A DNA stretch of 64,000 nt from a virus, in IMG/VR virus record IMGVR_UViG_3300023179_006727, positions 37,735 to 101,734 of that record. One strand, 5' to 3'. The position numbers and the translations under genes were made by a program. The notes under the pieces are model-generated. The model saw only the letters and a list, made by a program, of their open reading frames with translations. It did not search any database and was not told where the DNA came from. This document shows, one piece after another, positions 3,580-29,742 of the stretch. The first letter of the stretch is position 1; every line of letters begins with the position of its first letter.

Positions 3580-6500
3580 TTATTGTTGTAATACATTTGG
3601 AGTAAGAGATGCTACGATAACGATATCACTAGCGGTTGCACCATTGACGAATATTTCAAATGGAGCACTTCTTACTTCGTATAGATCACCAAATTTTTGG
3701 TTTGGGTCTTGTGGAACAACTACAACAGAGCTTATTAAATCAGCTAATTCAACATGCAAATAAGCGGTTAATTCACTAAAATAGAAAGTATCACCAAAAT
3801 TCCATTTATCTAGACTAAAATAGTTATTTAATGCTGTTAAAGCAGTGCTGCGTATTTGACTTTCACTAGCAGTAGTTAGTGGACTTTTAATAATTTTAAT
3901 AGTGCCACGTAACGCAGGATCTGCTTTTTGCCCAAATAGTGGTTTAAATTGAACACTGTTAATTACAACACTATCACTTAACATTTTATAATCATCAATA
4001 CTACTATAGCTTTGAGTTAATTCATTAATTGTTGGAGGTTCAGGTTCAATCAATACATTGGTAGAATCATTTAACCAATTTGTATACGATGTATAATATG
4101 CTTGTGTTACAACATATAGATCAATAATATTTGTTGTAGCGGGATCAATTCGGGTAGTATTGTTACTATTGTGTCGATATTGAAAAATAATATCTCCTCT
4201 ACCTGTTTTTACACTGTATTTGTAACTTACATCAGTAAGTGTAACAATATTAGTTACATTGTTTAAAGTACTTGTATACCATGCAGGTTGTGTGGCTATT
4301 TTCCCACTTACTGATGATACACCTGTAACCGCATCTGTTAAATCAGGATTACTATATAATGCAAAAGTAGTCGATGAATATCCCGTGGCTTTTATAAACC
4401 GTGTGCCATTATTACCACCCGCACCTGTAATAATCACTTTTTGTCCATCAGTGAACGAATAAAATGAAGAAACTGTAACTACGGCAGGAGTTGCAGAAGT
4501 AATATTTGTTATAGTATATTCAACAGGATTATAATCTGTATAAAATACAGTGTTTGCAGGATACAGGTAACGATTATCCCATACATCAGCATATGTTTCT
4601 TGTGCAATTACAATAGCTCCATTTGGAACAATTTCAGTTCTATATAATCCTAAATTGTCTTCAACAATTTCAAAAAATACATAAGGATATGGACTAGTAG
4701 AAGTATCACAAATTAATTCAAAGAAATCAGGATTACTTGCAAATCCTGTATCTATATCAATTGCAGAAATTTCTACTGCATAATCATCAGAATAGCCATC
4801 ACTTTCAATTGGTTGGGCAATAATATCTAAATAATAATTTGTACCTAATGGTTGTGCGCTTTGTAAATTTGGATTAACACTTTGAACACTAACATAGTCA
4901 GCAATTGTTTTTCCACTTTTTGGATCAAAAACTTTTTCAAAAGTATCGAAAAAAAATCTTACTTCATCTACACTACCAAAATAATATTGTAGTGTGCGAT
5001 ATCGAACATAATATGCATTGTCAATAACATTGTACGTAAAACTCATAAAATAAGTCGTAGGCACTACGTTTGAAGTTGGAATAGGGGTAACAACGCTCCA
5101 TCTTTCTAAATTTGCTGTCAAGGAATTATCAAACACTAATGCAAAATTTTGTTTTAATTGAATCAATGTTAAACATTGTCTAATAAGTGTATTACTTAAT
5201 GATGAATCAATTGGAGGTATAATACCCGTTGCTTGACTACTTGAAGTACCACCACTTGTATAAACATTATATATCGCTGTATTAACAGGATTTTCTAATG
5301 CACTATCATTATACAATGCATAAGTTGTGGCTGAATAACCACTTACTTTCGCATAATAAGTATTATTATTAAGTTCTGTCATACCACCAACACCACTGAT
5401 AACAACTGCTTGTCCATCGATTAATAAATGTGTTGATGAAGTAGTAACTACTCCTGGGATGGCGCTTGTTATATTAGTAATTGTTTTTGTAGCTGTTAAT
5501 GTTTTGTCAATGACAGCATCTTGTGGTATATATTCACTAAGGGTAATCGGACCGTTACCATTTTCTAAATTACCTGTATTATAATTAGAACCATCTTCAA
5601 TAACTTGTTCAACACCTGCCCATATAAAAGTTTTATCACCTAAAGCATAATTTGGCGTTCTAGTAACAATTCTATTATTTTTATCAAAACATTGAGTATT
5701 TGGATCAGGACATACAAACTTGATTAAAGTTCCTGTAGCAATGTATCTAAGATCTGTTCCGTTAAGGGGTCCTACTGATTGAGGAAATTCTGATGTTGTA
5801 TTAATATAAAAATAACCCGTAACGTTATTACTATTAACTGTGCTTAAATTCCAATATGCATTATAATTACCTGCTACTCCTGCAGGTTGATAATATCCAC
5901 TATATCTTGGGTAATATTCTAAATAATATTGTTGACATTGTTGACTATTTAAAATTTGTTGGAAAGATTGAGTTAAAAATTCTGTAGCAAAGTTAATGTT
6001 ACTTAAACTAAAAGTTGTAGCAGTTGTAGGTGCTCCTGTTGTAGGATCATCACCATCTAATTTCCACAATGCACCATCATCAGCATATACATTTGTACTA
6101 CTATATTTTCCTGTTGGATCTAATAAGTCTAAACTACGATTTACACCAATACTACTGCGATTTAATGCTTTTGATTTAATAATACTATTATATAAAGTAT
6201 ATGGAAAATTAGTATAGTCTTCTCCATTAACCATACGATTTTGTGTATAATATCTTGCAGGAGCACGTTCTTTTATACTATTTAAACTTTCACGTGTCTG
6301 TGCTGTATTGACAGGTAATTGTAAAGATAATGTTAAAGTTAATGTTTCAATACGATTTGAACGACTTAAATATCCAATATTTACAGTAATTCCCTGCATT
6401 TCATTAGGATCAATGGTATATTTTAATGCATTTCCACTGCGAACATATGCTCTAAAACTACCAACAGGAATTTCTGCAAAGATACCATCACCAAAAATAT

Positions 6501-7518
6501 AAGTGACTTGATCATTAAATCGTGAAGTAACGCTAAAAATTTTTCTTTGGCTATTCTCTAATTGTAATTGTGCATTTGCATAAACACTTTCAACCTGATT
6601 CCATAATTCGCTTGTAACTTGATCGCTATTTAATTTATAAAGCCAAGTATCAGTATTATTAATACCTTCTATATTAATTAATTGTACATTGTTTTCAATA
6701 GCTTCAGCGAATGCAAAATCAACGTTAGTAAGTACACCTTGTTTAAAATAAGAAAACCATCCTGTATTTGGGCTTCCAAAACCTAATTTATCATTTTGGT
6801 ATAAAATATTAAATGCGCCAACGGGTGCGGGTGGAATTTCATATAGTGCATTAGAATTTAAACTAGTAACACTAACAAGTTCAAAATTCATATCAACACC
6901 ATCTATTTGTGCCACATAAGGTACAACAGGTAAAAAGTTATCAGGTATAGCTATAGTATATTCATCAGTTTTTATGCCTAAAAGGGTGGCAGAGTTGCCT
7001 GGTCTGCCGACGTATTGACTACTAATTAAAGATGCGTTAATAATACTATTAAATTGTGTTTGCCAATATGGATTTGATGGGTCATTCCACTGTATAATTT
7101 GATTGCCTAGGGCATTGCCATTAATATCACGTATATTTTCAGTTGTTTGTACAGCTACAATTTTAACAATTCCTTGAGCACAAGTGTTTCTTTTTGGATT
7201 ATAACTTACTAAATTGGCTAATTTTATAACTGAATCACGTCTTTCTGCAGTATCAATAAAATTTTCACGTGCATTTAAATCACTTCTAAACGCCATAGAC
7301 TGACCCATAAAAGCAATAATATCTAGTAAAGCTATAAATTCACTGCTTTCAATATAATCATTAAATGTTTCGGGATAATAATTAGTTAAATAATCAATAA
7401 ATGATTTACGTAAAGTTTCATAATCATAACTTGTAAAGTCAGCTTCACGGTAAGTTTGGTAAATTTTTTTCCAATCTTGTACTCCAAACAGTGCACTTTG
7501 TCTCGTACTTGATGCCAT
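3580..7518 (-). CDS. Baseplate wedge subunit, T4 gp6-like, with two inserted beta-rich modules
   Basis: DFTSYDYETLR, ENFIDTAERRDSVIKLA..VSYNPKR, FGDG.F..IP and RESLNSIKERAP..YYTQNRMVNGEDY are gp6/baseplate-J family motifs. Adjacent to a gp25-like gene. Confidence 0.88.
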   Translation of the reverse strand: MASSTRQSALFGVQDWKKIYQTYREADFTSYDYETLRKSFIDYLTNYYPETFNDYIESSEFIALLDIIAFMGQSMAFRSDLNARENFIDTAERRDSVIKLANLVSYNPKRNTCAQGIVKIVAVQTTENIRDINGNALGNQIIQWNDPSNPYWQTQFNSIINASLISSQYVGRPGNSATLLGIKTDEYTIAIPDNFLPVVPYVAQIDGVDMNFELVSVTSLNSNALYEIPPAPVGAFNILYQNDKLGFGSPNTGWFSYFKQGVLTNVDFAFAEAIENNVQLINIEGINNTDTWLYKLNSDQVTSELWNQVESVYANAQLQLENSQRKIFSVTSRFNDQVTYIFGDGIFAEIPVGSFRAYVRSGNALKYTIDPNEMQGITVNIGYLSRSNRIETLTLTLSLQLPVNTAQTRESLNSIKERAPARYYTQNRMVNGEDYTNFPYTLYNSIIKSKALNRSSIGVNRSLDLLDPTGKYSSTNVYADDGALWKLDGDDPTTGAPTTATTFSLSNINFATEFLTQSFQQILNSQQCQQYYLEYYPRYSGYYQPAGVAGNYNAYWNLSTVNSNNVTGYFYINTTSEFPQSVGPLNGTDLRYIATGTLIKFVCPDPNTQCFDKNNRIVTRTPNYALGDKTFIWAGVEQVIEDGSNYNTGNLENGNGPITLSEYIPQDAVIDKTLTATKTITNITSAIPGVVTTSSTHLLIDGQAVVISGVGGMTELNNNTYYAKVSGYSATTYALYNDSALENPVNTAIYNVYTSGGTSSSQATGIIPPIDSSLSNTLIRQCLTLIQLKQNFALVFDNSLTANLERWSVVTPIPTSNVVPTTYFMSFTYNVIDNAYYVRYRTLQYYFGSVDEVRFFFDTFEKVFDPKSGKTIADYVSVQSVNPNLQSAQPLGTNYYLDIIAQPIESDGYSDDYAVEISAIDIDTGFASNPDFFELICDTSTSPYPYVFFEIVEDNLGLYRTEIVPNGAIVIAQETYADVWDNRYLYPANTVFYTDYNPVEYTITNITSATPAVVTVSSFYSFTDGQKVIITGAGGNNGTRFIKATGYSSTTFALYSNPDLTDAVTGVSSVSGKIATQPAWYTSTLNNVTNIVTLTDVSYKYSVKTGRGDIIFQYRHNSNNTTRIDPATTNIIDLYVVTQAYYTSYTNWLNDSTNVLIEPEPPTINELTQSYSSIDDYKMLSDSVVINSVQFKPLFGQKADPALRGTIKIIKSPLTTASESQIRSTALTALNNYFSLDKWNFGDTFYFSELTAYLHVELADLISSVVVVPQDPNQKFGDLYEVRSAPFEIFVNGATASDIVIVASLTPNVLQQ

Positions 7519-7539
7519 ATTATATCCCTTGTAAAGTAT

Positions 7540-7986
7540 TTATACAGTGCTCGCTTGCCCTGTACTTCTATCTAAAAGCACAGCAAGATTTACAGGATTA
7601 TTAAATGGAGTAAATGCAATTTCAAGCTCTAATAAAATGCCATTCTCTTGATTATTAATATAAACTGATCCTAAAATAATTCTTGGATCTTGTGAAATTA
7701 TTCTGCGTACTTCATCTTCAATTTGACCCAAAACAATAGTACTATTTGGTTCAAATAAAAATCCCCATAGTGTAGAACCATAAGCAGGTTGACCAACTTT
7801 ATCTCCCTGTTTAATATTAAAGGCATTCAATAGGTCACGAATTATTAAATTTTCATCAGTTAAAGTAAATTTTTTAGTAATTGGAACAGGTCGAGTTATT
7901 CCTGCAACGCCCCCAAATTTACCAGGCTCAGTAAATCTAGTTAATAATCCAAGTTCTTGAGTTGAAAATCCGTAATATGTAGCCAT
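7540..7986 (-). CDS. gp25: Baseplate wedge / sheath initiator, gp25-like
   Basis: DLLNAFNIKQGDKVGQPAYGSTLWGFLFEP...IISQDPRI is the GPW/gp25 signature. Confidence 0.88.
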   Translation of the reverse strand: MATYYGFSTQELGLLTRFTEPGKFGGVAGITRPVPITKKFTLTDENLIIRDLLNAFNIKQGDKVGQPAYGSTLWGFLFEPNSTIVLGQIEDEVRRIISQDPRIILGSVYINNQENGILLELEIAFTPFNNPVNLAVLLDRSTGQASTV

Positions 7987-16812: not shown

Positions 16813-18696
16813 ATGACAGTCATTAAAAGACCCCTAAATTACCTTAATAATAAGGATATTCTCAAAGAGATTCACTTAAGTAAAAATACTTATTGCAGTT
16901 TTATAGAACCACAAGATCACCAATATGATTATATAATTGATTATGAAGAAGGTGTTTCACTAGAAGATAGTCTAAAAATTGCACTTAGACCTGATATTAT
17001 ACAAAAAGCAAAAGAAAATCGTGCTTATCGTTTAAGTATTGAAAATGGAACAAAAATAGATCCTACTACAATAGAACATAATGATCTAGTTTTTAGAATT
17101 ATGACGTGGGATCATATACCATTAGCCCCTAAACAACCTAGAAAAATTGACAAGAAAAAATCTGCAAAAGAATTGTTTGAATTTGAAATTGAAGAAGATC
17201 AAATATATGATGACTTAGATGATCCAAAATTAAACAAAGAAATGGGCATGTCAGATATGATCCATGTTCGTGTCAATTTCCCACCATTTCAACATTTTAA
17301 GTACGCAGTAGTAGGGGGACAAATGTATTGTGTAGGTAAATCTCATTGGAAAGGTGACATCTATACAGGCCATTTTGATAAAGATAAAGGTCAACTTACT
17401 AACAAACTAGCCAAAATGTACCTCATGCTATGTGAAAAATATGCTATGAGGTTCAATTGGCGTGGTTACTGCGTAGATAAAACTACTGAAGCATTAACAC
17501 AACGTGGTTGGTTATCCTATGATCAAATCAATGAAGATGACAAAATTTTATCATATAATGAAAATAAATTAGTATGGTCATCAATTACATCAATATATAG
17601 GGGTCAATATAATGGATTAATGCATTATATGACTGCAACGGGTTTAGATTCACTCATGACACCTGAGCACAAACTTGTTACTAAAAATGGTCTTAAAAAA
17701 GTTGAACATGTTTTAGAACATGATAAAGTCGTTCTTATGGGTCAACCATTGGAGGATTGTACTATTCCAACAATTAATAATAGTTTAGTAGAAATTATTG
17801 GTTGGGTTGTTACTGAAGGTTCTTATGACTATTATCCAAATAAAACAATTAAACATATCAGTATCTATCAAAATAATGGGAAAAAAGCTAATCGAATACG
17901 TAAGTTACTAGAAAGTTTGGATATTAATTTTAGTGAAAGAATGAGAAAAAATAATATTTGTTTTAGAATTAATACAGAATCTTCCAAAAAAATAGCTGAA
18001 ATTGCACCACAAAAAAACCTTACCATGGAATTTTTGTTAAAACTTACCTATGAGCAAAGACTAACCTTATTACATACTATGATAGATGGTGATGGTTGGC
18101 GCACAGGAACTAAAAAACAAAATTTACGATATGTACAAAAGAACAAAGCTCACATCGATATGTTTCAAACACTATGCACCATGGTTGGATTAAGGTCGAA
18201 TTATCACCTACGAAACCATGTTTCATACGGTAAACCCACTAGTTCATATACTGTAAACATATTTTCAAATAGGAAAAATACAACAAGATTTGAAAATATT
18301 AGCTTGAATGGTGGTAAACAAAGCGGCAAAAACTATATTGGTAAAGGCAAAACTGCTCATCCTAATACACCTACAGTACCATATAATGACATTGTATGGT
18401 GTCCTGAAACAGAATATGGATGCTTTATTGCTAGAAGGAATGGCACAATTTTCTTAACAGGTAATACTTATAATGACGAAATGCGTGGTGCGGCTATTTT
18501 ACAATTAACTTATGTTGGGTTACGATTTAATGAGGCTAAATCAAGCAATCCTTTTGCTTATTATACAGCAGCAATTACTAATTCATTCTGTCGTGTATTG
18601 AATACAGAAAAGAAAAATCAAGGCATTCGTGATGATATTTTAGAGACTAACGGTCTAAACCCAAGTTGGTCAAGACAATTTGCGGAAGAATCCTAA
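16813..18696 (+). CDS. gp55: Late-transcription sigma factor (T4 gp55-like) precursor containing an intein
   Basis: Exteins carry NYLNNKDIL, RFNWRGY/TYNDEM and FNEAKSSNPFAYYT....NSF.RVL..EKKNQ. Order gp55-gp47-gp46 as in T4-like phages. Confidence 0.88.
   Translation: MTVIKRPLNYLNNKDILKEIHLSKNTYCSFIEPQDHQYDYIIDYEEGVSLEDSLKIALRPDIIQKAKENRAYRLSIENGTKIDPTTIEHNDLVFRIMTWDHIPLAPKQPRKIDKKKSAKELFEFEIEEDQIYDDLDDPKLNKEMGMSDMIHVRVNFPPFQHFKYAVVGGQMYCVGKSHWKGDIYTGHFDKDKGQLTNKLAKMYLMLCEKYAMRFNWRGYCVDKTTEALTQRGWLSYDQINEDDKILSYNENKLVWSSITSIYRGQYNGLMHYMTATGLDSLMTPEHKLVTKNGLKKVEHVLEHDKVVLMGQPLEDCTIPTINNSLVEIIGWVVTEGSYDYYPNKTIKHISIYQNNGKKANRIRKLLESLDINFSERMRKNNICFRINTESSKKIAEIAPQKNLTMEFLLKLTYEQRLTLLHTMIDGDGWRTGTKKQNLRYVQKNKAHIDMFQTLCTMVGLRSNYHLRNHVSYGKPTSSYTVNIFSNRKNTTRFENISLNGGKQSGKNYIGKGKTAHPNTPTVPYNDIVWCPETEYGCFIARRNGTIFLTGNTYNDEMRGAAILQLTYVGLRFNEAKSSNPFAYYTAAITNSFCRVLNTEKKNQGIRDDILETNGLNPSWSRQFAEES
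17470..18465 (+). mobile_element. Intein (332 aa) with LAGLIDADG homing endonuclease
   Basis: Block A CVDKTTEALTQRGW; block B TPEH; LAGLIDADG helices IIGWVVTEG and LLHTMIDGDG; C-terminus VWCPET...FLTGN followed by Thr. Removal restores RGY|TYNDEM. Confidence 0.93.
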
Positions 18697-18736: not shown

Positions 18737-19753
18737 ATGAGTAAATTATTTAAAAAGGCAGCAGTTTTCACTGATATACATTTTGGAATGCGTAATAACA
18801 GCATCCAACACAATGAGGACTGCATACAATTCGTTGATTGGTTTATAAAAACTGCCAAGAAAGAAGGGTGTGAAACCTGTTTCTTTCTTGGAGATTGGCA
18901 TCATAATCGTGCCACAGTCAACGTTCTTACCCTAAATTACAGCTTAAATGCATTGGAAAAATTAAATGAATCGTTTGACTGCGTTTATTTTATTGTTGGT
19001 AATCATGACCTTTATTATCGAGATCGTCGTGACGTACAGAGTGTTGAATGGGCTAAGCACCTTAAAAGAATTCGTATTTGTAACGATTGGGTTATTGATG
19101 GCGATTGTGTCATTGCTCCCTGGCTTATTGGGGAAGATTATAAAAAAATACAAACCCTAAACGCAAAATACCTGTTTGGTCACTTTGAACTACCATCATT
19201 TTATATGAATGCTATGGTTGAAATGCCCGATCACGGTGAAATCAACCGTAATCACGTATTACAATTTGGGCATGTTTTCACAGGACATTTTCATAAAAGA
19301 CAAACAAAAGGAAACGTAACATATATTGGTAACGCATTTCCGCATAACTATAGTGATGTAAATGATGATGATCGTGGTATGATGATACTAGAATGGGGTA
19401 AAGAACCACAATTTCGTTCTTGGGATAATCAACCTAAATTTCGTTCGTATACTTTATCAGAAATTTTGGATAACCCTGATAAATTACTGTTACCTAATAC
19501 AAGCGTAAAAATACAAATTGATCGTGAAATCAATTACGAAGAATCAAGTTCAATCAAGGAAACTATTATGAAAGAATATAATTTAAGAGAAATGACCTTA
19601 ATTCCACAACGTGTTGACATTGAAACTGATACCACAGATCAAGTAAACTTACAATTTGAGAGTGTTGATACTATTGTATTGTCACAAATTGAACAACTTG
19701 AAGCAGGTGCTTATGATAAGCAACTGCTACTTAACATTTACAGAAATTTATGA
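18737..19753 (+). CDS. gp47: Recombination nuclease, Mre11/SbcD-like
   Basis: Metallophosphoesterase motifs DIHFG, GDWHH, GNHD, GH, GHFH. Confidence 0.93.
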   Translation: MSKLFKKAAVFTDIHFGMRNNSIQHNEDCIQFVDWFIKTAKKEGCETCFFLGDWHHNRATVNVLTLNYSLNALEKLNESFDCVYFIVGNHDLYYRDRRDVQSVEWAKHLKRIRICNDWVIDGDCVIAPWLIGEDYKKIQTLNAKYLFGHFELPSFYMNAMVEMPDHGEINRNHVLQFGHVFTGHFHKRQTKGNVTYIGNAFPHNYSDVNDDDRGMMILEWGKEPQFRSWDNQPKFRSYTLSEILDNPDKLLLPNTSVKIQIDREINYEESSSIKETIMKEYNLREMTLIPQRVDIETDTTDQVNLQFESVDTIVLSQIEQLEAGAYDKQLLLNIYRNL

Positions 19754-21915
19754 TCGTTATAAAAGAATTAACCATTAAAAACTTCCTATCAGTAGGCAAT
19801 GTTACACAAAAAATTAACTTCAATCGCAACGATTTAACTCTTATTCTTGGTGAAAATCGTGATTTAGGTGGAGATGGTGCACGTAATGGCACAGGAAAAT
19901 CCACTATTGTACAAGCACTTAGCTATGCTCTATACGGTTCAGTTCTTAATAATATCAAAAAAGATAATCTAATTAACCTTACTAATGGTAAAGGTATGCT
20001 CGTTACCGTTGATTTTGATATCAATGGCAAAGAATATCGTATTGAACGTGGGCGAAAACCTAATATATTGAAGTTCTATGTAGACAATTCCGAACAAGAA
20101 TTTGATGAAGATGATAGCGAAAGTCAAGGTGAAAGTAAAGAAACCCAAGCTAAAATCGAGTCTATGATAGGCATTTCTGCTGAAATGTTTAAGCATATTG
20201 TTGCATTAAACACCTATAATGAACCATTTTTAGCACTTAAAGCAGCAGATCAACGTGAAATTATTGAACAATTGCTTGGTATTACCTTGCTTAGTGAAAA
20301 AGCTGAAGGTATTAAAGAACTCAATCGTAACGTAAAAGAACAAATTCAAAAAGAGGAATTTAAGATACGTAGTGTGCAAGATGCCAATACAAAAATCCAA
20401 GAACAAATTGATAATCTTAAGCGTAGACAAACACTTTGGACTACAAAAAAGAATGAAGATATTACCAATTATACGAATCAATTAATTGAATTATACAAAA
20501 TTGATATTGATCAAGAAATTAGTGCGCATCGTTCTTTAGTGATTTATAATGAAAAACAAACAACATTAACCAATGCTAAAAATCATTATGATACTGAGCT
20601 GTCTAAACTTACTAACCGATACAATGAAACTGTTGTGTCAAATCGGAAAGAAAGTAGTGCTATCAGTACACAAATGAATAATTTACAGAATATTGACATT
20701 CATATCGAAATTTCAAACTTAAAAATTATTTCTGAAATTAGGGAAAAAACAATTAAACGTGATAATACAAAGAAATTATTTACAAACGCTAATGCTACTT
20801 GTATACGTTTAAAAAAAGCTATTGATGATATTAATGGAGAACTAGTTAAGTTATATGACCACAAATGTTATGCATGTGGTCAAGATTTTCATGATAATAG
20901 CCTTAAAATTGTTATAGAGGATAAAGAAACTAAGCTAGAAGAACTTAAGGTAGAATATGATACTGCACAAACACAATACGCAGAATATGAAACTATTCTT
21001 AAAGAAATTGGTGATATACCATTAACTCCTACTGTAGTGTATAAAACTTTGGAAGAAGCGATTAATCACAAGTCTACCATAGATTCGTTGGATGAAAAAT
21101 CAAAAAAGTTGTTAGAAACTATTGACCAAGCTAAAAAATTATATGAAAAGGATATTACAGCACTTGAACAACAATACAATATAGTTGTTAGTAAGATTGG
21201 TGATATCGGAACAAAACCAACTATTATCTATAAAAATTTAGAAGAAGCATTAAAACATCAAAGTACGGTTGAAAAGTTAGAGCAAGCCTTAGAAAAGCGT
21301 GTTGATGAGTTTGATCCTTATGCTGACCAAATCAATGATATGCAAAATAATAGTCTTGTTGAGGTTAATTTTGGCACGTTAAATGATTTAACTAAGGTAT
21401 TAAAGCATCAAGAATACTTGTTAGACTTGTTAACAAATAAGAAATCTTTTGTTCGTAAGAAGATTATTGAACAAAATTTAAGTTATTTGAATACTCGTTT
21501 AGGTAATTATTTGGATAAAATGGGTTTACCTCATCGTGTTAAGTTTCAAAATGATCTTAGTGTAGAAATTACAGAGCTAGGTCGTGATTTAAGTTATGGC
21601 AATTTTAGTCGTGGTGAAAGCACTCGTTTGATACTATCACTATCATTTGCTTTCCGTGATGTATGGGAAAACCTGTATCATAGTATCAATTTATTGTTTA
21701 TTGATGAAATGATTGACAATGGATTAGATACGGTCGGTGTAGAAAATGCCATTGGATTGTTTAAAGAATTAGGTAGACGTAGAGATAAATCGGTATGGTT
21801 AATCTCACATCGTGATGAATTGGTAAGTCGTGTTAATAACGTATTACATGTGATTAAAGAGGGTGGTTTTACTCGTTACTCTAATGTCAATGAAAAATTT
21901 GCGTTGCCGATATAA
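19750..21915 (+). CDS. gp46: Recombination ATPase, Rad50/SbcC-like
   Basis: KNFLS; Walker A NGTGKS; zinc hook CYAC; signature FSRGE; Walker B LLFIDE; ISH switch. ATGA overlap with gp47. Confidence 0.95.
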   Translation: MIVIKELTIKNFLSVGNVTQKINFNRNDLTLILGENRDLGGDGARNGTGKSTIVQALSYALYGSVLNNIKKDNLINLTNGKGMLVTVDFDINGKEYRIERGRKPNILKFYVDNSEQEFDEDDSESQGESKETQAKIESMIGISAEMFKHIVALNTYNEPFLALKAADQREIIEQLLGITLLSEKAEGIKELNRNVKEQIQKEEFKIRSVQDANTKIQEQIDNLKRRQTLWTTKKNEDITNYTNQLIELYKIDIDQEISAHRSLVIYNEKQTTLTNAKNHYDTELSKLTNRYNETVVSNRKESSAISTQMNNLQNIDIHIEISNLKIISEIREKTIKRDNTKKLFTNANATCIRLKKAIDDINGELVKLYDHKCYACGQDFHDNSLKIVIEDKETKLEELKVEYDTAQTQYAEYETILKEIGDIPLTPTVVYKTLEEAINHKSTIDSLDEKSKKLLETIDQAKKLYEKDITALEQQYNIVVSKIGDIGTKPTIIYKNLEEALKHQSTVEKLEQALEKRVDEFDPYADQINDMQNNSLVEVNFGTLNDLTKVLKHQEYLLDLLTNKKSFVRKKIIEQNLSYLNTRLGNYLDKMGLPHRVKFQNDLSVEITELGRDLSYGNFSRGESTRLILSLSFAFRDVWENLYHSINLLFIDEMIDNGLDTVGVENAIGLFKELGRRRDKSVWLISHRDELVSRVNNVLHVIKEGGFTRYSNVNEKFALPI

Positions 21916-21932
21916 AGATATAAGTAAAATAT

Positions 21933-22445
21933 ATGCCATCTGCTAGTAAAATTAAAGGAAGTTCATTTGAGAGGGATATTGCAAAATATTTGTCCGATCT
22001 ATATAATGAGTCTTTTGTACGTGTTCCAAATAGTGGAGCATTTATTGGTGGTATTAACAAAGATAGGAAATCTTATTTGCATGAGGGACAGGTTCGCAGT
22101 TTTAAGGGAGATATAATTCCTGGGGAATCGTTTCAATTATTAAATATAGAATGCAAAAACTATGCAGATTTTCCGTTCTATCAAATTCTAACTACATGTA
22201 AATTATTAGATGATTGGTTAGATCAATTGATGGATGTAAGTGATAAGGATGATTTGAACGTTCTTTTTATGAAATTCAATCGTAAAGGTCGTTATATTGC
22301 AGTAGAACAAAAACATAAATGGAAAATGAACAATTACTTAGTATATCATAGTGATATATATGGTTCATGGATTATCTCAGAATTAGAACATTTTTTTAAA
22401 TTAAACTCAGGTCTCTTCAAAACTCTCTCCAAAAATAATACTTAG
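21933..22445 (+). CDS. Holliday junction resolvase, Hjc-like PD-(D/E)XK nuclease
   Basis: KIKGSSFER...RVPNSGA...GDII...NIECK motif order. Confidence 0.8.
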   Translation: MPSASKIKGSSFERDIAKYLSDLYNESFVRVPNSGAFIGGINKDRKSYLHEGQVRSFKGDIIPGESFQLLNIECKNYADFPFYQILTTCKLLDDWLDQLMDVSDKDDLNVLFMKFNRKGRYIAVEQKHKWKMNNYLVYHSDIYGSWIISELEHFFKLNSGLFKTLSKNNT

Positions 22446-22477
22446 GTCTACTCTAAGGTCTCAAAATCATAGAACAA

Positions 22478-22824
22478 TAGGTTTGGTTGCATGACCTGTA
22501 ACGCAACGAAGGTATATCAATGAACGTTGGTCAATGCCTGAATCACTGCCGTTCTACAGTGGCTTCAATGGACTACCCTCAAGGAGGATGCTTTAAATGG
22601 GTGCTCGCATGTCACATTTCCATTGTCGTAATAGTTGAATTCATTGAGAAATGAGTTGGAGTATGTAGTAATGTACTAAGTGTCTGATCATAATAATATG
22701 GGCAAAGGGTCAGAATCAGGTTATAAATTAATTCACTGCGGTTTATAACGGGTATAAAATACCACTGATGTATACGATATATTTCTTGTTAGTAACAAGT
22801 TTTGGGGTGATATAGTCAAACCTA
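22478..22824 (+). ncRNA. Candidate ~350-nt structured RNA, family unknown
   Basis: 22478-22496 pairs with 22806-22824 (17/19 pairs, 3 G-U, which favours the + strand). Encloses hairpins such as CACTG..CAGTG, CCTC-AAG-GAGG, TCTGATC..GGTCAGA, GTTATAAA..TTTATAAC, GGTAT-AAA-ATACC and CTTGTT-AGT-AACAAG. No ORF. Confidence 0.5.
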
Positions 22825-22883
22825 CCTGAATAAAATATATGAAGTGAACCCTATCCACGTAATGTGGGCGTTGGCAAACAAAC

Positions 22884-22930
22884 AAAAAGGGACAATATAA
22901 ATTATTAATTTTATATTTACCCCTTTTTTT
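22884..22930. terminator. Terminator-like stem-loop, possibly bidirectional
   Basis: AAAAAGGG..AATATAAA...TTTATATT..CCCTTTTTTT, between convergent transcription units. Confidence 0.45.
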
Positions 22931-23253
22931 GCGTTAAGCAACAACCAATTATTATAACTTTTTATTATTTTGAGCGTCGCTGATTAAAGGCATTTGATAG
23001 AACCCCCCTAATACAAATGATGTGCTGAAAATCCCCCCACCTATTAATGGCTTTATTACCCCCCATGGTTTTCAACACATTGAGTTTAAAAAATAAAAAA
23101 AGAAAAAAAGATTTTTGTTTTTTCGAATTTATGAGAAAAAACAAAAATAGATGACTGCAGGTCGATAGACCAAAGTCATCTTTAAAGAAAAGCAAGGATG
23201 ATATTAAGGCATTATCAACAAAAAATTCAATGTAAGTTTCAAATAAAAAATTT

Positions 23254-23466
23254 TTAAAAGAAAGGTAAACCACTTTTTTTTGTGGTTTCTAAATTATCAT
23301 CTATAAGTTGGTTAATTAGTTGTGTTTCTGTGGGTGATAAATTCATTGCATCAGTATACGATAGTGATCCACGCATATACCAAGACAAACGCAATGCATT
23401 AGATTTAATATTTTTTACTTCTTCGTCAAGTGATTTTACTAGCTTCTCTATGTCATCTTGTGACAA
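23254..23466 (-). CDS. Small baseplate/tail assembly protein (gp51-like position); probably the -1 frame extension of the upstream gene
   Basis: LRLSWYMRGSLSYTDAMNLSP. TTG start with no SD. In the -1 frame of the slippery site at 23484-23490. Confidence 0.7.
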   Translation of the reverse strand: MSQDDIEKLVKSLDEEVKNIKSNALRLSWYMRGSLSYTDAMNLSPTETQLINQLIDDNLETTKKSGLPFF

Positions 23467-23490
23467 ATAGAGAAGCTTTAGTCGAAAAAA
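23441..23490 (-). promoter_or_regulatory. Programmed -1 ribosomal frameshift signal
   Basis: Minus strand T TTT TTC heptamer (23490-23484), 6-nt spacer, then 15-bp hairpin AGCTTCTCTA-TT-TGTCA-CAAGA-TGACA-TAGAGAAGCT (23477-23441). Confidence 0.8.
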
Positions 23491-24302
23491 TCGGTAACAT
23501 TAAATGCAACGGTTTGTTTATATTCGTGTTTACAATTAATACATTTAAATTGAAGTGGTTTACTTGAACTACTATCTCGTAATTCAATACTTTTATCACG
23601 AATTTTATCATACATTTTTTTATCACAATTTTGTAAAAAATCTAGAATAAAATTTTGATCAGTTACCGTTGTTTCAGGAGTTTTTATATATTGAATACTT
23701 TTACCAAGAATTTTTTGACTTAATTCATTCATTTTAGCTAATAATTCACTTGCTGCTTTATTTTTAGCTTCACCATTTTCAAATGAATCAAGTTGTGCTA
23801 AACCACGTTGAATTTCAAATTGTTCAGTATTATTTGCGTTGTTTTGTTGATATGTTACTTCATTGAATTTAACTGAAAGATCACCTAGCATAAGTTCTTT
23901 ATTATAATCTCCAACACTAATACCACTTAATAATTGTGAAAGATTTACTCCAAATCTCATTGTTTCACTACAACTAGGGCAGCTAGTATCAACATCCATT
24001 TCGTCACCTGTAGTAGCAATTTTTATAGCAATAAGTATAGTTTCAATATCACTATTAATAATTTTCCATGGATTTTTAATGGATGGGACACAACTTTTAA
24101 TAATTGATACTACTGCTGATCCATTAAAAAGTGCATCAGGAGTACGTGAAGTAATTTCATCATTAGCTGTCATTGGATATACAGGTAATTCTCCTGTAGG
24201 AGGAAATTCTATAATATCAGGCGTGTAATTAAACTTACTTGGTAATCTAATATGTATCGCAGGTCTGCGAAAATACTGCTTAAGTGGGTTATTTTCCATC
24301 AT
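23478..24302 (-). CDS. Baseplate hub assembly chaperone, gp26-like
   Basis: NPLKQYFRRP...LPS...PMTANDEI...D..TILIAIKIAT.G, with CPSC and CINC zinc-binding pairs; ends DFFD. Confidence 0.78.
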   Translation of the reverse strand: MMENNPLKQYFRRPAIHIRLPSKFNYTPDIIEFPPTGELPVYPMTANDEITSRTPDALFNGSAVVSIIKSCVPSIKNPWKIINSDIETILIAIKIATTGDEMDVDTSCPSCSETMRFGVNLSQLLSGISVGDYNKELMLGDLSVKFNEVTYQQNNANNTEQFEIQRGLAQLDSFENGEAKNKAASELLAKMNELSQKILGKSIQYIKTPETTVTDQNFILDFLQNCDKKMYDKIRDKSIELRDSSSSKPLQFKCINCKHEYKQTVAFNVTDFFD

Positions 24303-24369: not shown

Positions 24370-27300
24370 ATGGCAGATCAACTTGATCCTGATATAATAC
24401 AACAGTTAAATGAGAAATTTAACGAATTAGCTGCTATTACCTCGTCTGCTGCAGCACGAGCTAGTGCAAGTGCTTCTGCTACTCAAAATCAAACTGCAGC
24501 AGCAAAAAAAAATACTGATGCAAGTAATGATAATTTTGAAGCTATAAGACGTGCAAATCAAGCAATACGACAACAATCAGGTGCAGTAGATTCTAGTCGT
24601 GCTACTATTAATAGATTAAATGCTAGTATTCAAGATCAGTACAAAGCTTACGAGGCCAATCAAAAAGCTATAGAAGAAATTGAAAAGGCTACTAATAAAG
24701 CAGCACAACAGGAGCGTAATAAAGCAATTCATCTTGAGCGTGCAGTAGAATCCACAATTGCTGCATTTGAACAATTAGGCAAAGCTATATTTGATTCTAG
24801 TAGGGGAATGTCAAAATATACAGGTGTAGTTGAAAACCTTACAACTGCAGTAAGTGCGTTGTTATTAATTTTTGGCGGTCCGTTACTCAAAGTGGTAGGT
24901 TTAGTTGTTGGAGCATTAGGTAAATTATTTGGTGCGCAATTAGAGCAAATTGAAGCAAGTAATAAATTATATGAATCGTTAAGTGAATTTGGTGCATTAA
25001 GATTAGATGAGTTTGGTAATGGTATACAGTCTATCACACAAGATGTACATAAATTTGGATTAACAGTAAAGAATGATGGTGGATTATTTGTAGATAGTAT
25101 GAAAGGTATGTCCAAGGAGATTGTTGCGCTTGGAGGTACAGTAGGTCAAGGTCGTGGACAATTAGCGGATGCTTTTGGTGCAAATATTGGTGCACCTATT
25201 GAAGATGAATTACGCAGACTTGGTTATAATAGTCAAACATATTTTAAATCATGGGCAAAAGCTACGCAATTAGCTATACAATCAGGTCAAGCTGTTGGTA
25301 AAAGTAATTCGGAGTTAAACAAACAAACCAATCAATATTTAAAAACGTTAACTGAACTAAGTGAATTAACAGGTATTTCACGTGATGAGCAAATGGCTAT
25401 ACGTGAAAGAGCAATGCAAGATGAAGCTTATTTCATGAAACGCCGTGAAATTGCTGCTAGTGGGGATGACAAAGCTTTAGAACGTTTTGATAAATTAACT
25501 ACGGTAACAAATCAGTTTGGTGATGGAATTGGGCAGGTAATTAAAGAAGTAACGAATGCAGGTGGAGTAGTTACTGAAAGAGCAGCAGAAATTAATGCAT
25601 TTACAAATGGAGCAATTGAACGTGCCACACAAGCATATAATCGTGGTGCGATTGATGAACAACAGTTACGTAAAGAAATTGCAGAGGCAGTTAATTCATT
25701 AAGAGAAAGATTTGGTTCAAAAGCTATAGCGATTTTGGGTAATGATTTTGCAAAAGCGATAGGCTTATCAAGTGAAGCAATGAAGGCATCTGCGACTATA
25801 GAAAAACAATCTGCGGATGCAGCAAAAACAGCAAGAAATGTCATAGATAAAATTGCTGCAGAAGGTGCAGGAAAAGAACGTCAAATTGCAATTGATGAAA
25901 ACAAAATGGCTATAAAAAATCAACAAGCCTTAGAAAAAGTCATTCAAGTGACAAATGGACCGCTTATTGGGGCTTTTGAAAAATTAATTCAAGTCACTAA
26001 TAAGTTGCGTGATGCTTTTGTAAAAATATTACGTATGGTTGGTATTGATGCTGAAGCGGGTACATCAGCGGAATCAAAAAGACGTGTACAAGCTGCTGAA
26101 AGTTCATTAGAAGAGACCAAAAAAAGTTTAGAATTTCAAAAACAGCAAGCTCAAAAAACTGCGATGAGAGCAGCAGGTATTAAAGAAGGTGAGACAGGAA
26201 CAGAGGAGCAACGTAAAAAGTATCAAGAAATATACAATAAAGAATTAGAACGTACTACAAAATTTGACCGTGAACGTATTGCTTCATTAGAAACGCAACG
26301 TGCATTATCACTTGAAGAAGAGCGTGATCGTTTAATTAAAGAGGGTTCATTAAAAGAAGAGGTAAAACAAAATAAAGAATTAATTGCAGCAAAAGAAAAA
26401 GTTGCAGAAGTTGATAAATTAATTGCTGATTATGAGGGCCGTAGAAAAAAGGTCCTAGAATCGTTAAAACTAACTGAAGAAGATTTAAAAGGGCGTAATT
26501 ATGCAAAAAATATAGACGTTGTGCGTAAGGCAGAGCAGAAATATTTAGAAGATTTAAAAGAACAGCGTGGTATAAGAGCAGCAGAATATGCTAAAAAGTT
26601 AGAGGAACAAGTTAAACCTGCTCGTGAAGGTGTTGCTGAACCTACAAGTAAATCTGCATCTACTACTATATCTGTAGCAGATGCAAAACAATTTGAAGGT
26701 ACACAAAAAGAGTTTTATGATAAGATGTATAAAACTTTGCTTGACGAAGCCAAGAAAGCAGGATTAAAGAATGCAGAAGTTATAGCAAAATTAGGTGCGT
26801 CACAATCTGCATTAGAAACAGGTTATGGCAAATCTACTGCAGGTGCTGAAAATTATTTTGGGATAAAAGCACAAAAAGGTCAGCCTAGTAACACTGTAGA
26901 AACTACTGAATGGGATGAAAAGAAACAACAATACGTAAAACAATCTGCTGCGTTTAGAAAATATGGTAGTATGCAAGAATCTGCTGCTGATTATATTAAG
27001 TTTTTACAAGAAAATAAACGATATAGTAAGGTATTAAGTGCTGAAAATATAGCGGAAGCTATAGCAGAGCAGGGTAAGACAGGATATGCTACTGACCCAC
27101 AGTACGTAAAAAAATTAGCTGATATTACTGCAAGGGCAGAAAAAACTTTTGCTCCACAAACTCAAATCGCAGCAGTAAAACCTGAAAAACAAGCAGTGCC
27201 AGCACAAAAACCACAAGTAGCAACTGCTCCACCTGAAAAACAAGCAGTGCCAGCACAAAAACCACAAGTTGCAGCGGCATCTCCCGAAAAACAAGTAGAA

Positions 27301-29399: not shown

Positions 29400-29407
29400 A
29401 TAAAGTT

Positions 29408-29632
29408 ATGCACTTATTTGAATTTTATAACGCAGCACCAAAAGGAATGCAAGATGTGGAAGATGATCACAGTCAACCACGTTGGGGTGATTCACGTAAA
29501 ACCAAGGGTTTAACATTAGCAGCTATCAATAAAATTCGTAGGATGAAAGAAGTTAGGTCATACGAACAAGCAGAAAATCTTAAGAAAGTTCGCAAGCAAT
29601 ATGCACCTCCTGCACCTGAAGGTGCACTCTAA
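29408..29632 (+). CDS. Small conserved head-module protein
   Basis: Between portal and core genes; late motif at 29395; RKTK.LTLAAINKIRRM...VRKQY. Confidence 0.65.
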   Translation: MHLFEFYNAAPKGMQDVEDDHSQPRWGDSRKTKGLTLAAINKIRRMKEVRSYEQAENLKKVRKQYAPPAPEGAL

Positions 29633-29742
29633 AACGTATATTTAAAACAAAAACGTAAAAAAATAGCACTTTTAGCGGTGTTTTTTTGCATATTAGGTAA
29701 ATAAATGAAGCACAAGCCATTTACCTAAGGAGAATATATTAA

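What the first reader, a model, noticed from the sequence alone, without database searches (positions are those of the whole stretch)
22446..22930. Candidate large structured ncRNA downstream of the resolvase
Seen: the only long ORF-free stretch in the window, more GC-rich than other intergenic DNA. A 19-position long-range helix (22478-22496 with 22806-22824) encloses at least six hairpins. There are alternative pairings (TCAATGAA 22517 with TTCATTGA ~22640; GACTA 22571 with TAGTC 22813), then CCACG-TAA-TGTGG and a terminator-like stem. No tRNA, tmRNA or RNase P signature was recognised. Inference: a phage-encoded RNA or an origin-priming transcript co-expressed with recombination genes.
Basis: partly seen in the sequence, partly recalled or inferred. 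Interest (0 to 1): 0.72.

Follow-up and report, generated by a model that had tools for sequence, protein, structure and literature searches.

The report
Divergent Polynucleobacter-1-type phage RNA
The gene-free stretch behind a small nuclease gene of this uncultured freshwater T4-like phage encodes a real, about 400-450-base folded non-coding RNA whose first 160 bases are a divergent copy of an orphan RNA motif catalogued in 2010 (Polynucleobacter-1); what the RNA does is still unknown.

Summary
The finding is real. Window 22477-22870 (+), with a leader from about 22409 and an intrinsic terminator at 22889-22930, is a structured non-coding RNA gene. Thermodynamic folding is no better than shuffles (z -1.44). 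Covariation is strong: 25 of 113 pairs have compensatory changes among the 4 members of the window's lineage, and 27 of 36 pairs across 30 lineages for the 5' domain. No shuffle out of 500 reached these values.

The RNA is not a new class. Its 5' domain (22477-22635) has the architecture of Rfam RF01718, Polynucleobacter-1 (Weinberg 2010, function unknown). Rfam's own model misses the window. A model trained without the window's lineage, but including an Rfam-positive member, finds it at 51.5 bits (E 4e-11).

The 3' 235 nt are lineage-specific. The family occurs in T4-like and other phages and in integrase-bearing islands of Rhodobacteraceae (2 of 151 genomes), often beside small nucleases or recombinases.

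Group I intron, decayed gene and tRNA/tmRNA/RNase P are rejected. No expression data were available.

This scan has met the same family before on other DNA.

Verdict: a divergent, extended variant of a known orphan RNA; moderate interest.

The parts
21933..22445 (+). Upstream gene: PDDEXK_15 endonuclease ('resolvase'), 170 aa. It is the last gene of the gp55-gp47-gp46-nuclease block. It is context, not part of the RNA fold.
   Evidence: Pfam PF24608 at 9.7e-24 and phrog_244. 120 relatives were found in IMG/VR.
22409..22461 (+). Leader with three copies of the word AGGTCT (22409, 22444, 22456). The second copy overlaps the stop codon of the nuclease gene. A fourth, related word AGGTTT at 22479 opens the core.
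   Evidence: Sequence. Three or four copies are kept in L003, L082 and L002 although the spacers differ. Other lineages carry other words in the same place: AGGCA 3-6 times, or CTAATA. There are 8 + strand copies in 64 kb, 3 of them within 53 nt.
22477..22635 (+). 5' domain, Polynucleobacter-1-like. Hairpin 22486-22507; nested hairpins 22510-22539; hairpin 22544-22561. Long-range helix 22562-22572 with 22619-22629, which encloses ACUACCC, the hairpin 22577-22587, GGAUGC and the hairpin 22596-22618. It is followed by the invariant UUGUCGUAAUAGU.
   Evidence: R1 scores 86.5 bits. R2, trained without this lineage, scores 51.5 bits, E 4e-11, over 22521-22635. Covariation across 30 lineages. Same architecture as RF01718.
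22636..22870 (+). 3' domain, specific to this lineage: ten helices at 22638-22657, 22683-22714, 22715-22769 (enclosing 22720-22749 and 22751-22763), 22770-22849 (enclosing 22785-22799 and 22804-22822) and 22854-22868.
   Evidence: RNAalifold on 4 sequences plus pair counts. Not matched by the model of the family's 3' module (R3).
22889..22930 (+). Intrinsic terminator: a 13-pair interrupted stem, then a U run. An A run lies before it, so it may act in both directions.
   Evidence: Sequence. Helix 18 has 5 compensatory pairs in relatives. The simple scan did not list it.

Best explanation
Shown: window about 22409-22930 (+) is the gene of a structured non-coding RNA of about 400-450 nt, or about 520 nt with the leader and terminator. 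Its 5' domain (22477-22635) is a divergent member of the Polynucleobacter-1 RNA family (Rfam RF01718). Its 3' domain (22636-22870) is a well-folded extension specific to this phage lineage. It ends at an intrinsic terminator.

Inferred:
- It is transcribed rightward, as the tail of the gp55-gp47-gp46-nuclease transcript or from an unrecognised phage promoter.
- It is released or kept as a stable folded RNA and acts in trans rather than on a neighbouring gene.
- The conserved multi-helix junction (ACUAYCC / GGAYGC / UUGUCGUAAUAGU) forms a specific tertiary pocket.
- The single-stranded leader, with 3-4 copies of one short purine-rich word, offers repeated binding sites for a factor of the host or the phage (a protein, or the 30S subunit through Shine-Dalgarno-like AGG words).
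- On this reading the RNA works as a decoy or scaffold carried by mobile elements.

The identity (real RNA, this family) I hold at about 0.9. The trans-acting binder mechanism I hold at about 0.3. The confidence given for the whole statement is a compromise between the two.
For: - Compensatory changes in the window's lineage: 113 pairs, 97.3% paired against 92.4% shuffled. 25 pairs changed on both sides against 9.5 expected, 0 of 500 shuffles, and slid controls gave 0-3.
- Family-wide 5' domain: 30 lineages, 92.9% paired against 75.7%. 27 of 36 pairs changed on both sides, 0 of 500 shuffles, and slid controls gave 31-52% paired.
- No codon periodicity of substitutions: 50/55/63 by phase. No PHROG family hit at significant E-value (best 0.035-0.044) for the small ORFs.
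- Link to RF01718, step 1: R1 hits L032/L034/L035 at the syntenic site. There Rfam RF01718 scores 63 bits against a gathering score of 37, with the same helices.
- Link to RF01718, step 2: RF01718 gives sub-threshold full-length hits at the same coordinates in L087 (30.6 bits) and L114 (24.2 bits).
- Link to RF01718, step 3: R2, built without the window's lineage, finds the window at E 4e-11.
- Independent gene in other contexts: TTGACA-17-TATAAT promoters lie upstream in L091 and L083 (read). A conserved promoter-like GATAAAT box and a divergent neighbour are seen in Rhodobacteraceae islands.
- Not a leader of a downstream gene here: a terminator follows, then minus-strand genes.
- Accessory, mobile distribution: phages, integrase islands, and 2 of 151 Rhodobacteraceae genomes.
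- Leader words are kept within lineages while the spacers drift.
Against: - No transcript data exist: no RNA run holds the stretch. Ends, strand and abundance are therefore untested.
- Rfam's own RF01718 model does not match the window even at E 10.
- The MFE is not better than shuffles.
- The first two hairpins of the 5' domain differ from the family consensus. R2 aligns well only from 22521 on.
- No binding partner is known. No consistent protein neighbour exists across all contexts.
- The leader words could act at the DNA level, as operator or promoter elements. They could also be processing sites.
- I found no RNA segment whose complement tracks the words between lineages.
Confidence: 0.5

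Rival explanations
1. It is a cis-acting 3'-UTR element of the nuclease/recombination operon. The folded RNA would protect the upstream mRNA from 3' exonucleases, or tune expression of the adjacent, potentially toxic DNA-cutting enzyme.
For: - It lies directly behind a nuclease gene on the same strand, with no promoter-like site in between.
- The leader words overlap the stop codon.
- In other phages the RNA lies behind an unrelated nuclease. L102 has a SegE GIY-YIG nuclease, and the 2010 paper reports most members behind PSSM2_218-like genes, which are SegE GIY-YIG.
Against: - In L091 and L083 the RNA has its own sigma-70-type promoter.
- In Rhodobacteraceae islands the neighbouring recombinase is divergently transcribed.
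- Only about 9 of the 80 loci with the PDDEXK_15 gene have the 5' domain.
- A 400-nt multi-junction fold is far more than a stabilising hairpin needs.
Confidence: 0.15
2. It is a large ribozyme, or a small-molecule or metabolite sensor. The invariant junction nucleotides would be an active site or ligand pocket.
For: - Invariant unpaired nucleotides sit at a multi-helix junction across 30 lineages: ACUAYCC, GGAYGC, UUGUCGUAA.
- Weinberg et al. left the riboswitch question open ('?') for the motif.
Against: - There is no match to any ribozyme or riboswitch family of Rfam.
- There is no gene to regulate downstream in the window.
- No conserved cleavage-site signature was recognised.
- Nothing here tests catalysis.
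Confidence: 0.1
3. The RNA gene is mainly a conserved landmark. Selfish nucleases and recombinases home to it or travel with it. Its neighbourhood with DNA-cutting enzymes would then reflect their biology and not a shared mechanism.
For: - Four unrelated enzyme families lie next to family members. These are PDDEXK_15 (window, L037, L064, L032), SegE GIY-YIG (L102), HNH (L089, and L096 by eye) and small tyrosine recombinases (Rhodobacteraceae).
- By established knowledge, free-standing homing nucleases and integrases often target conserved RNA genes.
Against: - PDDEXK_15 is a core gene of these phages with or without the RNA, so here adjacency may be mere position.
- This reading does not say what the RNA itself does.
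- No cleavage or att site was mapped.
Confidence: 0.1
4. It is an origin-priming or R-loop transcript.
For: It lies at the border of the replication/recombination and structural modules. T4 origins use R-loops (established knowledge). C6 tracts lie 70 nt downstream, at 23003-23065.
Against: - Selection acts on RNA base pairs, not on sequence alone.
- The C tracts lie beyond the terminator and are absent from relatives.
- The family also sits in chromosomal islands.
Confidence: 0.04
5. It is a decayed protein-coding gene or a group I intron.
For: Short motifs resemble the classical group I R and S elements (GCUUCAAUGGACUA, GAUAUAGUC). This is from memory and was only a lead.
Against: - Substitutions show no 3-periodicity, and no protein family matches.
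- The R-like motif is the 5' strand of the covarying helix CAAUxxx/xxx'AUUG, and the S-like motif is a hairpin loop.
- There is no RF00028 hit at E 10.
- There are no exons: the upstream gene is complete in 120 relatives.
Confidence: 0.01

Closest known systems
Polynucleobacter-1 RNA motif (Rfam RF01718; Weinberg et al. 2010, Genome Biol 11:R31, PMC2864571)
   Same: - The order of helices is the same: two or three 5' hairpins, then a long-range helix enclosing ACUAYCC-hairpin-GGAYG and a further hairpin.
- The habitat is the same: aquatic metagenomes.
- The position is the same: behind a small nuclease gene of T4-like phages.
- The function is unknown in both.
- An Rfam-positive member (L032) sits at the same syntenic site as the window's RNA.
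   Different: - Rfam's model does not detect the window.
- The first hairpins are diverged.
- The window RNA carries a further 235-nt folded 3' domain, a worded leader and a terminator, so the transcript is about three times the 141-position motif.
- The upstream nuclease here is PDDEXK_15, not the SegE GIY-YIG type (PSSM2_218-like) named in 2010.
- The 2010 paper found no member in a sequenced purified phage. Here the carriers are uncultured phage contigs.
GOLLD and ROOL large RNAs (Rfam; own knowledge: phage- and prophage-associated, function unknown, shown by cryo-EM to form RNA-only multimers)
   Same: They are large, intricately folded, orphan RNAs carried mainly by phages and mobile elements, and they are independent genes with sporadic distribution.
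   Different: There is no sequence or structure match. The window RNA is smaller. There is no association with tRNA genes. Oligomerisation is untested.
Group I self-splicing introns of T4-like phages
   Same: The size is similar, they occur next to homing-type nucleases in some relatives, and two short sequence resemblances exist.
   Different: The helix topology is different, there are no exons, and no Rfam match was found. This reading is rejected.

Membership tests
Polynucleobacter-1 RNA (RF01718) | Scores at or above Rfam's gathering score (37 bits) with the RF01718 covariance model | tested here: not met
   No RF01718 match in window 22300-23500 even at E 10, and none at gathering score in the whole window.
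Polynucleobacter-1 RNA (RF01718) | Helix architecture of the motif: 5' hairpins, then a long-range helix enclosing ACUAYCC-hairpin-GGAYG and a second hairpin | tested here: met
   The consensus of 30 lineages including the window was compared with the RF01718 structure line on L032 and with R1 on L032.
Polynucleobacter-1 RNA (RF01718) | Homology through intermediates: a profile that holds a bona fide member but not the window's lineage must find the window | tested here: met
   R2 (27 sequences including Rfam-positive L032, without the window, L002, L003 and L082) hits window 22521-22635 at 51.5 bits, E 4e-11, and hits the three relatives. RF01718 gives sub-threshold full-length hits on family members L087 and L114.
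Polynucleobacter-1 RNA (RF01718) | Genomic context reported in 2010: downstream of GOS11034 / PSSM2_218-like genes | tested here: inconclusive
   PSSM2_218 is a SegE GIY-YIG nuclease and is unrelated to the window's PDDEXK_15 gene. However, Rfam-positive L032/L034 lies behind a PDDEXK_15 homologue, and family member L102 lies behind a SegE GIY-YIG gene.
Family-wide 3' module (GUAAUAGAGG-loop with AACC-CCUCU, seen in Rhodobacteraceae-type, L037, L064, L091, L062 and others) | Match to model R3 built from 22 lineages | tested here: not met
   R3 finds untrained members (L096, L039, L065, L074, L076, L077) but not the window, L002, L003 or L082 at E 1. The likeness of 22804-22824 to that loop that I saw by eye is unconfirmed.
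Group I intron | P3-P8 core with P7 pairing of the R and S elements, flanking exons, and a match to RF00028 | tested here: not met
   No RF00028 hit. The R-like and S-like motifs lie in other, covarying helices. The upstream gene is complete.
tRNA / tmRNA / RNase P RNA | Detection by ARAGORN or by Rfam models | tested here: not met
Cis-regulatory leader / riboswitch | Lies in the 5' UTR of a same-strand gene, with an expression platform | tested here: not met
   The terminator at 22889-22930 is followed by minus-strand genes. The next + strand gene starts at 24370.

The most novel reading that the evidence does not exclude
The extended Polynucleobacter-1 RNAs, this one included, are a functional class of large RNAs of mobile elements that works with or against DNA-cutting and DNA-joining enzymes. 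Possible roles are a nuclease inhibitor or immunity factor, a guide or scaffold, or a ribozyme. The lineage-specific repeated words would be read by base pairing or by a co-evolving protein.
Probability: 0.12. Interest if true: 0.85.

Novelty: new variant of a known kind. Interest (0 to 1): 0.5.

Why it matters
Polynucleobacter-1 has been an orphan motif since 2010, with 16 examples and no function. This window shows three things about it.
- The catalogued 141 positions are only the front part of much longer, terminator-bounded RNAs.
- The family is far wider than Rfam's model sees. It covers freshwater and marine T4-like phages, other phages, and integrase islands of cultured Rhodobacteraceae.
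- It has modular 3' domains and repeated leader words.

A large, conserved RNA that travels on phages and islands, often beside nucleases and recombinases, is a plausible player in phage-host or phage-phage conflict. The cultured carriers (Nereida ignava CECT 5292, Marivivens donghaensis CECT 8947, Marivita cryptomonadis CL-SK44) make it directly testable. For genome annotation, it explains a recurrent 'empty' gap in T4-like phage genomes.

Tried and rejected
- Rfam at gathering score on the whole window, and at E 10 on 22300-23500, gave only chance-level hits.
- blastn of the gap against 50,697 phage records found no match.
- Folding z-scores were not significant.
- The group I intron idea, from R- and S-like motifs recalled from memory, was rejected on helix topology.
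- An RNase P CR-V-like resemblance in the leaders of L064 and L091 was not pursued, because Rfam finds nothing.
- A pseudoknot between 5' (U)AGGU(UUG) and 3' (CAA)ACCU(A) forms 8 bp in the window and L002 but only 5 bp in L003 and L082. In the wider family, the U-to-C change in AAGGCU lineages is not compensated. It stays unproven.
- I searched for a 'twin box' (one 7-letter word twice in the tail, as earlier notes of this scan report for relatives). In this lineage TCACTGC occurs twice in the window and TTCACTGAG twice in L082. L003 and L002 break the identity, so it is not supported here. The repeated word of this lineage is AGGTCT in the leader.
- I looked for complements of the leader words inside the RNA and found no partner that tracks them.
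- The gp26 protein as a query for related loci found nothing.
- Exact-block scans for more members of the window's lineage gave only the 3 known relatives, plus L191, which shares only about 20 nt.
- Sequencing runs: no RNA holder is listed. The DNA holders are freshwater and lake metagenomes.
- Laying contigs of 4 runs gave identical or L002-like sequence and no new variants.
- Most of the 22 genome contigs pattern hits were chance matches, as expected from the pattern's information content. Only the 7 Rhodobacteraceae hits passed the helix test.
- No paper mentions DUF6626.

Full report
**Context.** The window is part of a 101.7-kb IMG/VR virus record, about 33% G+C. It belongs to a T4-like myovirus. 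The + strand carries:
- a gp55 late sigma factor with a LAGLIDADG insertion (16813-18696);
- gp47/SbcD (18737-19753);
- gp46/SbcC (19750-21915);
- a 170-aa PDDEXK_15 endonuclease (21933-22445).

After a gap come a small conserved minus-strand ORF (23254-23466), gp26 (23478-24302, minus strand), the gp5 lysozyme and the gp20 portal. Near-identical DNA occurs in freshwater and lake metagenomes of several studies.

**The observation.** The gap 22446-23253 is the longest ORF-free stretch of the window, at 808 nt. Its first 160 nt reach 0.447 G+C, against 0.335 for the window. ARAGORN finds nothing. Rfam finds nothing at gathering score, and only chance-level hits at E 10. The minimum free energy of 22446-22930 is not better than dinucleotide shuffles: z is -1.44 on the + strand and -1.24 on the - strand. 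Thermodynamics alone would therefore not have supported the finding.

**Relatives and covariation in the window's lineage.**
- The nuclease protein retrieved 80 syntenic loci from IMG/VR.
- Only L003 and L002 (79% and 72% nucleotide identity), and later L082, are alignable with 22466-22932. The downstream 22935-23253 is not conserved.
- The alignment shows invariant blocks interrupted by hairpins that carry compensatory changes and whole-hairpin indels.
- On the four sequences, a structure of 113 pairs in 18 helices is 97.3% paired.
- 25 pairs changed on both sides against 9.5 in shuffles. No shuffle out of 500 reached this, and slid controls gave 0-3.
- Variable columns show no codon periodicity: 50/55/63 by phase.
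- The small ORFs match no PHROG family. A decayed gene is excluded.

**The wider family.**
- nhmmer found the block GCTTCAAT...CTAYCC...TTGTCGTAA in the distant syntenic loci L064/L067 and L037.
- A pattern built on this block retrieved true members from IMG/VR and from about 45 metagenome contigs.
- It also found members in seven Rhodobacteraceae genomes: Nereida, Planktotalea, Marivita, Roseovarius and Marivivens.
- Chance matches were separated by requiring the three variable pairs of the enclosing helix.
- Across 30 lineages the 5' domain has 36 pairs in 7 helices and is 92.9% paired, against 75.7% in shuffles.
- 27 of those pairs changed on both sides, with 0 of 500 shuffles reaching this. 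Slid controls gave 31-52% paired.

**Identification.**
- Model R1, built from this alignment, scores the window at 86.5 bits. It also hits L032/L034/L035 directly behind their nuclease gene.
- At exactly that place Rfam RF01718 (Polynucleobacter-1) scores 63 bits against a gathering score of 37. Its structure line has the same helices.
- RF01718 also gives sub-threshold, full-length hits at the coordinates of family members L087 (30.6 bits) and L114 (24.2 bits).
- As an independent test I built R2 from 27 sequences. It excludes the window's lineage and includes L032. It finds window 22521-22635 at 51.5 bits, E 4e-11, and finds the three close relatives.
- The 5' domain is therefore a divergent member of the Polynucleobacter-1 family that Rfam's narrow model, seeded in 2010, misses.

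**What the literature says.** The only paper that names the motif is Weinberg et al. 2010. Its supplement says that the 3' half is not always detected. It says most examples lie downstream of GOS11034 genes with possible homology to PSSM2_218 of cyanophage P-SSM2. It also says none was found in a sequenced purified phage. PSSM2_218 is a SegE-type GIY-YIG nuclease and is unrelated to the window's PDDEXK_15 gene. Family member L102 does lie behind a SegE GIY-YIG gene, between gp46 and gp26.

**The 3' part.** In Rhodobacteraceae-type members, L037, L064, L091 and L096, the 5' domain is followed by a conserved module. This is a hairpin with the loop UACAGCGUAACC or UGAUAGCAAAACC, preceded by GUAAUAG.
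- Model R3 of this module finds untrained members.
- R3 also hits syntenic loci that lack the R1 domain (L039, L065, L068, L074, L076, L077, L078). The RNAs at this phage locus are therefore modular.
- R3 does not hit the window or its three relatives at E 1.
- The window's 3' domain (22636-22870) is thus lineage-specific or too diverged. Its folding rests on the four-sequence covariation alone.

**Leader words.** Three copies of AGGTCT lie at 22409, 22444 (overlapping the stop codon) and 22456. AGGTTT at 22479 precedes the core.
- L003, L082 and L002 keep 3-4 copies while the spacers drift.
- Rhodobacteraceae-type members carry 3-6 copies of AGGCA between a promoter-like GATAAAT box and the core. 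Other lineages carry CTAATA-type words.
- I found no RNA segment whose complement follows the words.
- The words are Shine-Dalgarno-like (AGG) and could bind the 30S subunit or a protein. That is inference only.

**Contexts.** In Rhodobacteraceae the RNA lies in an island. The order is a 188-aa tyrosine recombinase (divergent), the RNA, DUF6626, small ORFs, and a second integrase. Only 2 of 151 sampled genomes of the family have it. The Roseovarius locus L180 holds two copies 6.7 kb apart. Other phage contexts have HNH nucleases nearby or no recognisable partner. There is no tRNA association. Only about 9 of the 80 PDDEXK_15 loci have the R1 domain, so the RNA is not tied to that gene.

The 19-position helix 22478-22496 with 22806-22824 conflicts with the covarying hairpin 22486-22507 and with the hairpin 22804-22822. 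It also loses two pairs without compensation in L003 and L082. The other 'alternative pairings' fall inside supported helices. The CCACG/TGTGG hairpin and the terminator are confirmed.

**Expression.** No sigma-70-like or TATAAATA late promoter lies just upstream. The terminator at 22889-22930 is the first terminator found behind the gp55-gp47-gp46-nuclease block, so co-transcription is the simplest reading. No RNA data exist to test it. Laying contigs added nothing.

**Earlier notes of this scan.** After I had reached RF01718 myself, a word search showed that the scan has met this family often on other DNA. Those notes call it 'full-length Polynucleobacter-1 phage RNA'. They report a 'twin box' in the tail and a neighbourhood of small nucleases and recombinases. 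I confirm the family and, in part, the neighbourhood. I do not find a twin box in this lineage's tail.

**Verdict.** This is a real structured RNA and a divergent, extended variant of a known orphan family. Its function is unknown. My best guess is a trans-acting decoy or scaffold of mobile elements, at about 0.3.

Noticed in passing
window 16813-18696 (+): The gp55-like late sigma factor is 627 aa. A LAGLIDADG_3 domain (residues 415-494) lies between its N-terminal (8-220) and C-terminal (552-618) sigma parts. It looks like an intein or an inserted homing endonuclease in the late sigma factor.
   Followed up: no
window 22995-23185: Three C6 tracts and two inverted repeats lie beyond the RNA's terminator. 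This part of the gap is not conserved in L003, L002 or L082, so it is not part of the RNA.
   Followed up: partly
window 23254-23466 (-): A small ORF (70 aa) just downstream of gp26 is conserved at the DNA level in many syntenic loci (L002, L003, L023, L024, L031, L057-L060, L072 and others). No Pfam or PHROG family matches it.
   Followed up: partly
L040, L062, L063, L066, L076, L039, L065, L068, L074, L077 (about 4500-5000 in each): These syntenic gaps behind the PDDEXK_15 gene hold a different RNA. It shares the family's 3' module (R3, 27-69 bits) and AGGC-type leader words. In place of the Polynucleobacter-1 domain it has another 5' domain (GGUCGGG...CUCGAC-CACCUUGAG). The RNAs at this locus are modular.
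   Followed up: partly
L004, L005, L006, L023, L027, L031 (about 4560-5300): Further syntenic gaps of about 720-750 nt, G+C-richer than their surroundings, match none of R1, R3 or Rfam. They are possibly another structured RNA.
   Followed up: no
L114:2837-3166 (+); L153:9708-9782; L161:9011-9085: A phage contig that carries a family member also encodes a permuted tmRNA (RF04321, 61.5 bits). Its relatives encode a tRNA with a CUA anticodon (amber suppressor-like) and a tRNA cluster.
   Followed up: no
L180:1-1077 and 6726-7816: A Roseovarius MAG holds two direct copies (79-98% identical) of the whole RNA gene with its promoter region, 6.7 kb apart.
   Followed up: partly
L191:5203-5225: An unrelated IMG/VR contig shares about 20 identical bases with the loop and stem of the window's first hairpin (TTGCATGACCTGTAACGCAA) and nothing else. 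This is chance or a tiny shared module.
   Followed up: partly
window 29400-29742: This is the second-longest intergenic gap (343 nt, G+C 0.347, above the other gaps), between the portal gene and the next gene. No Rfam hit.
   Followed up: no
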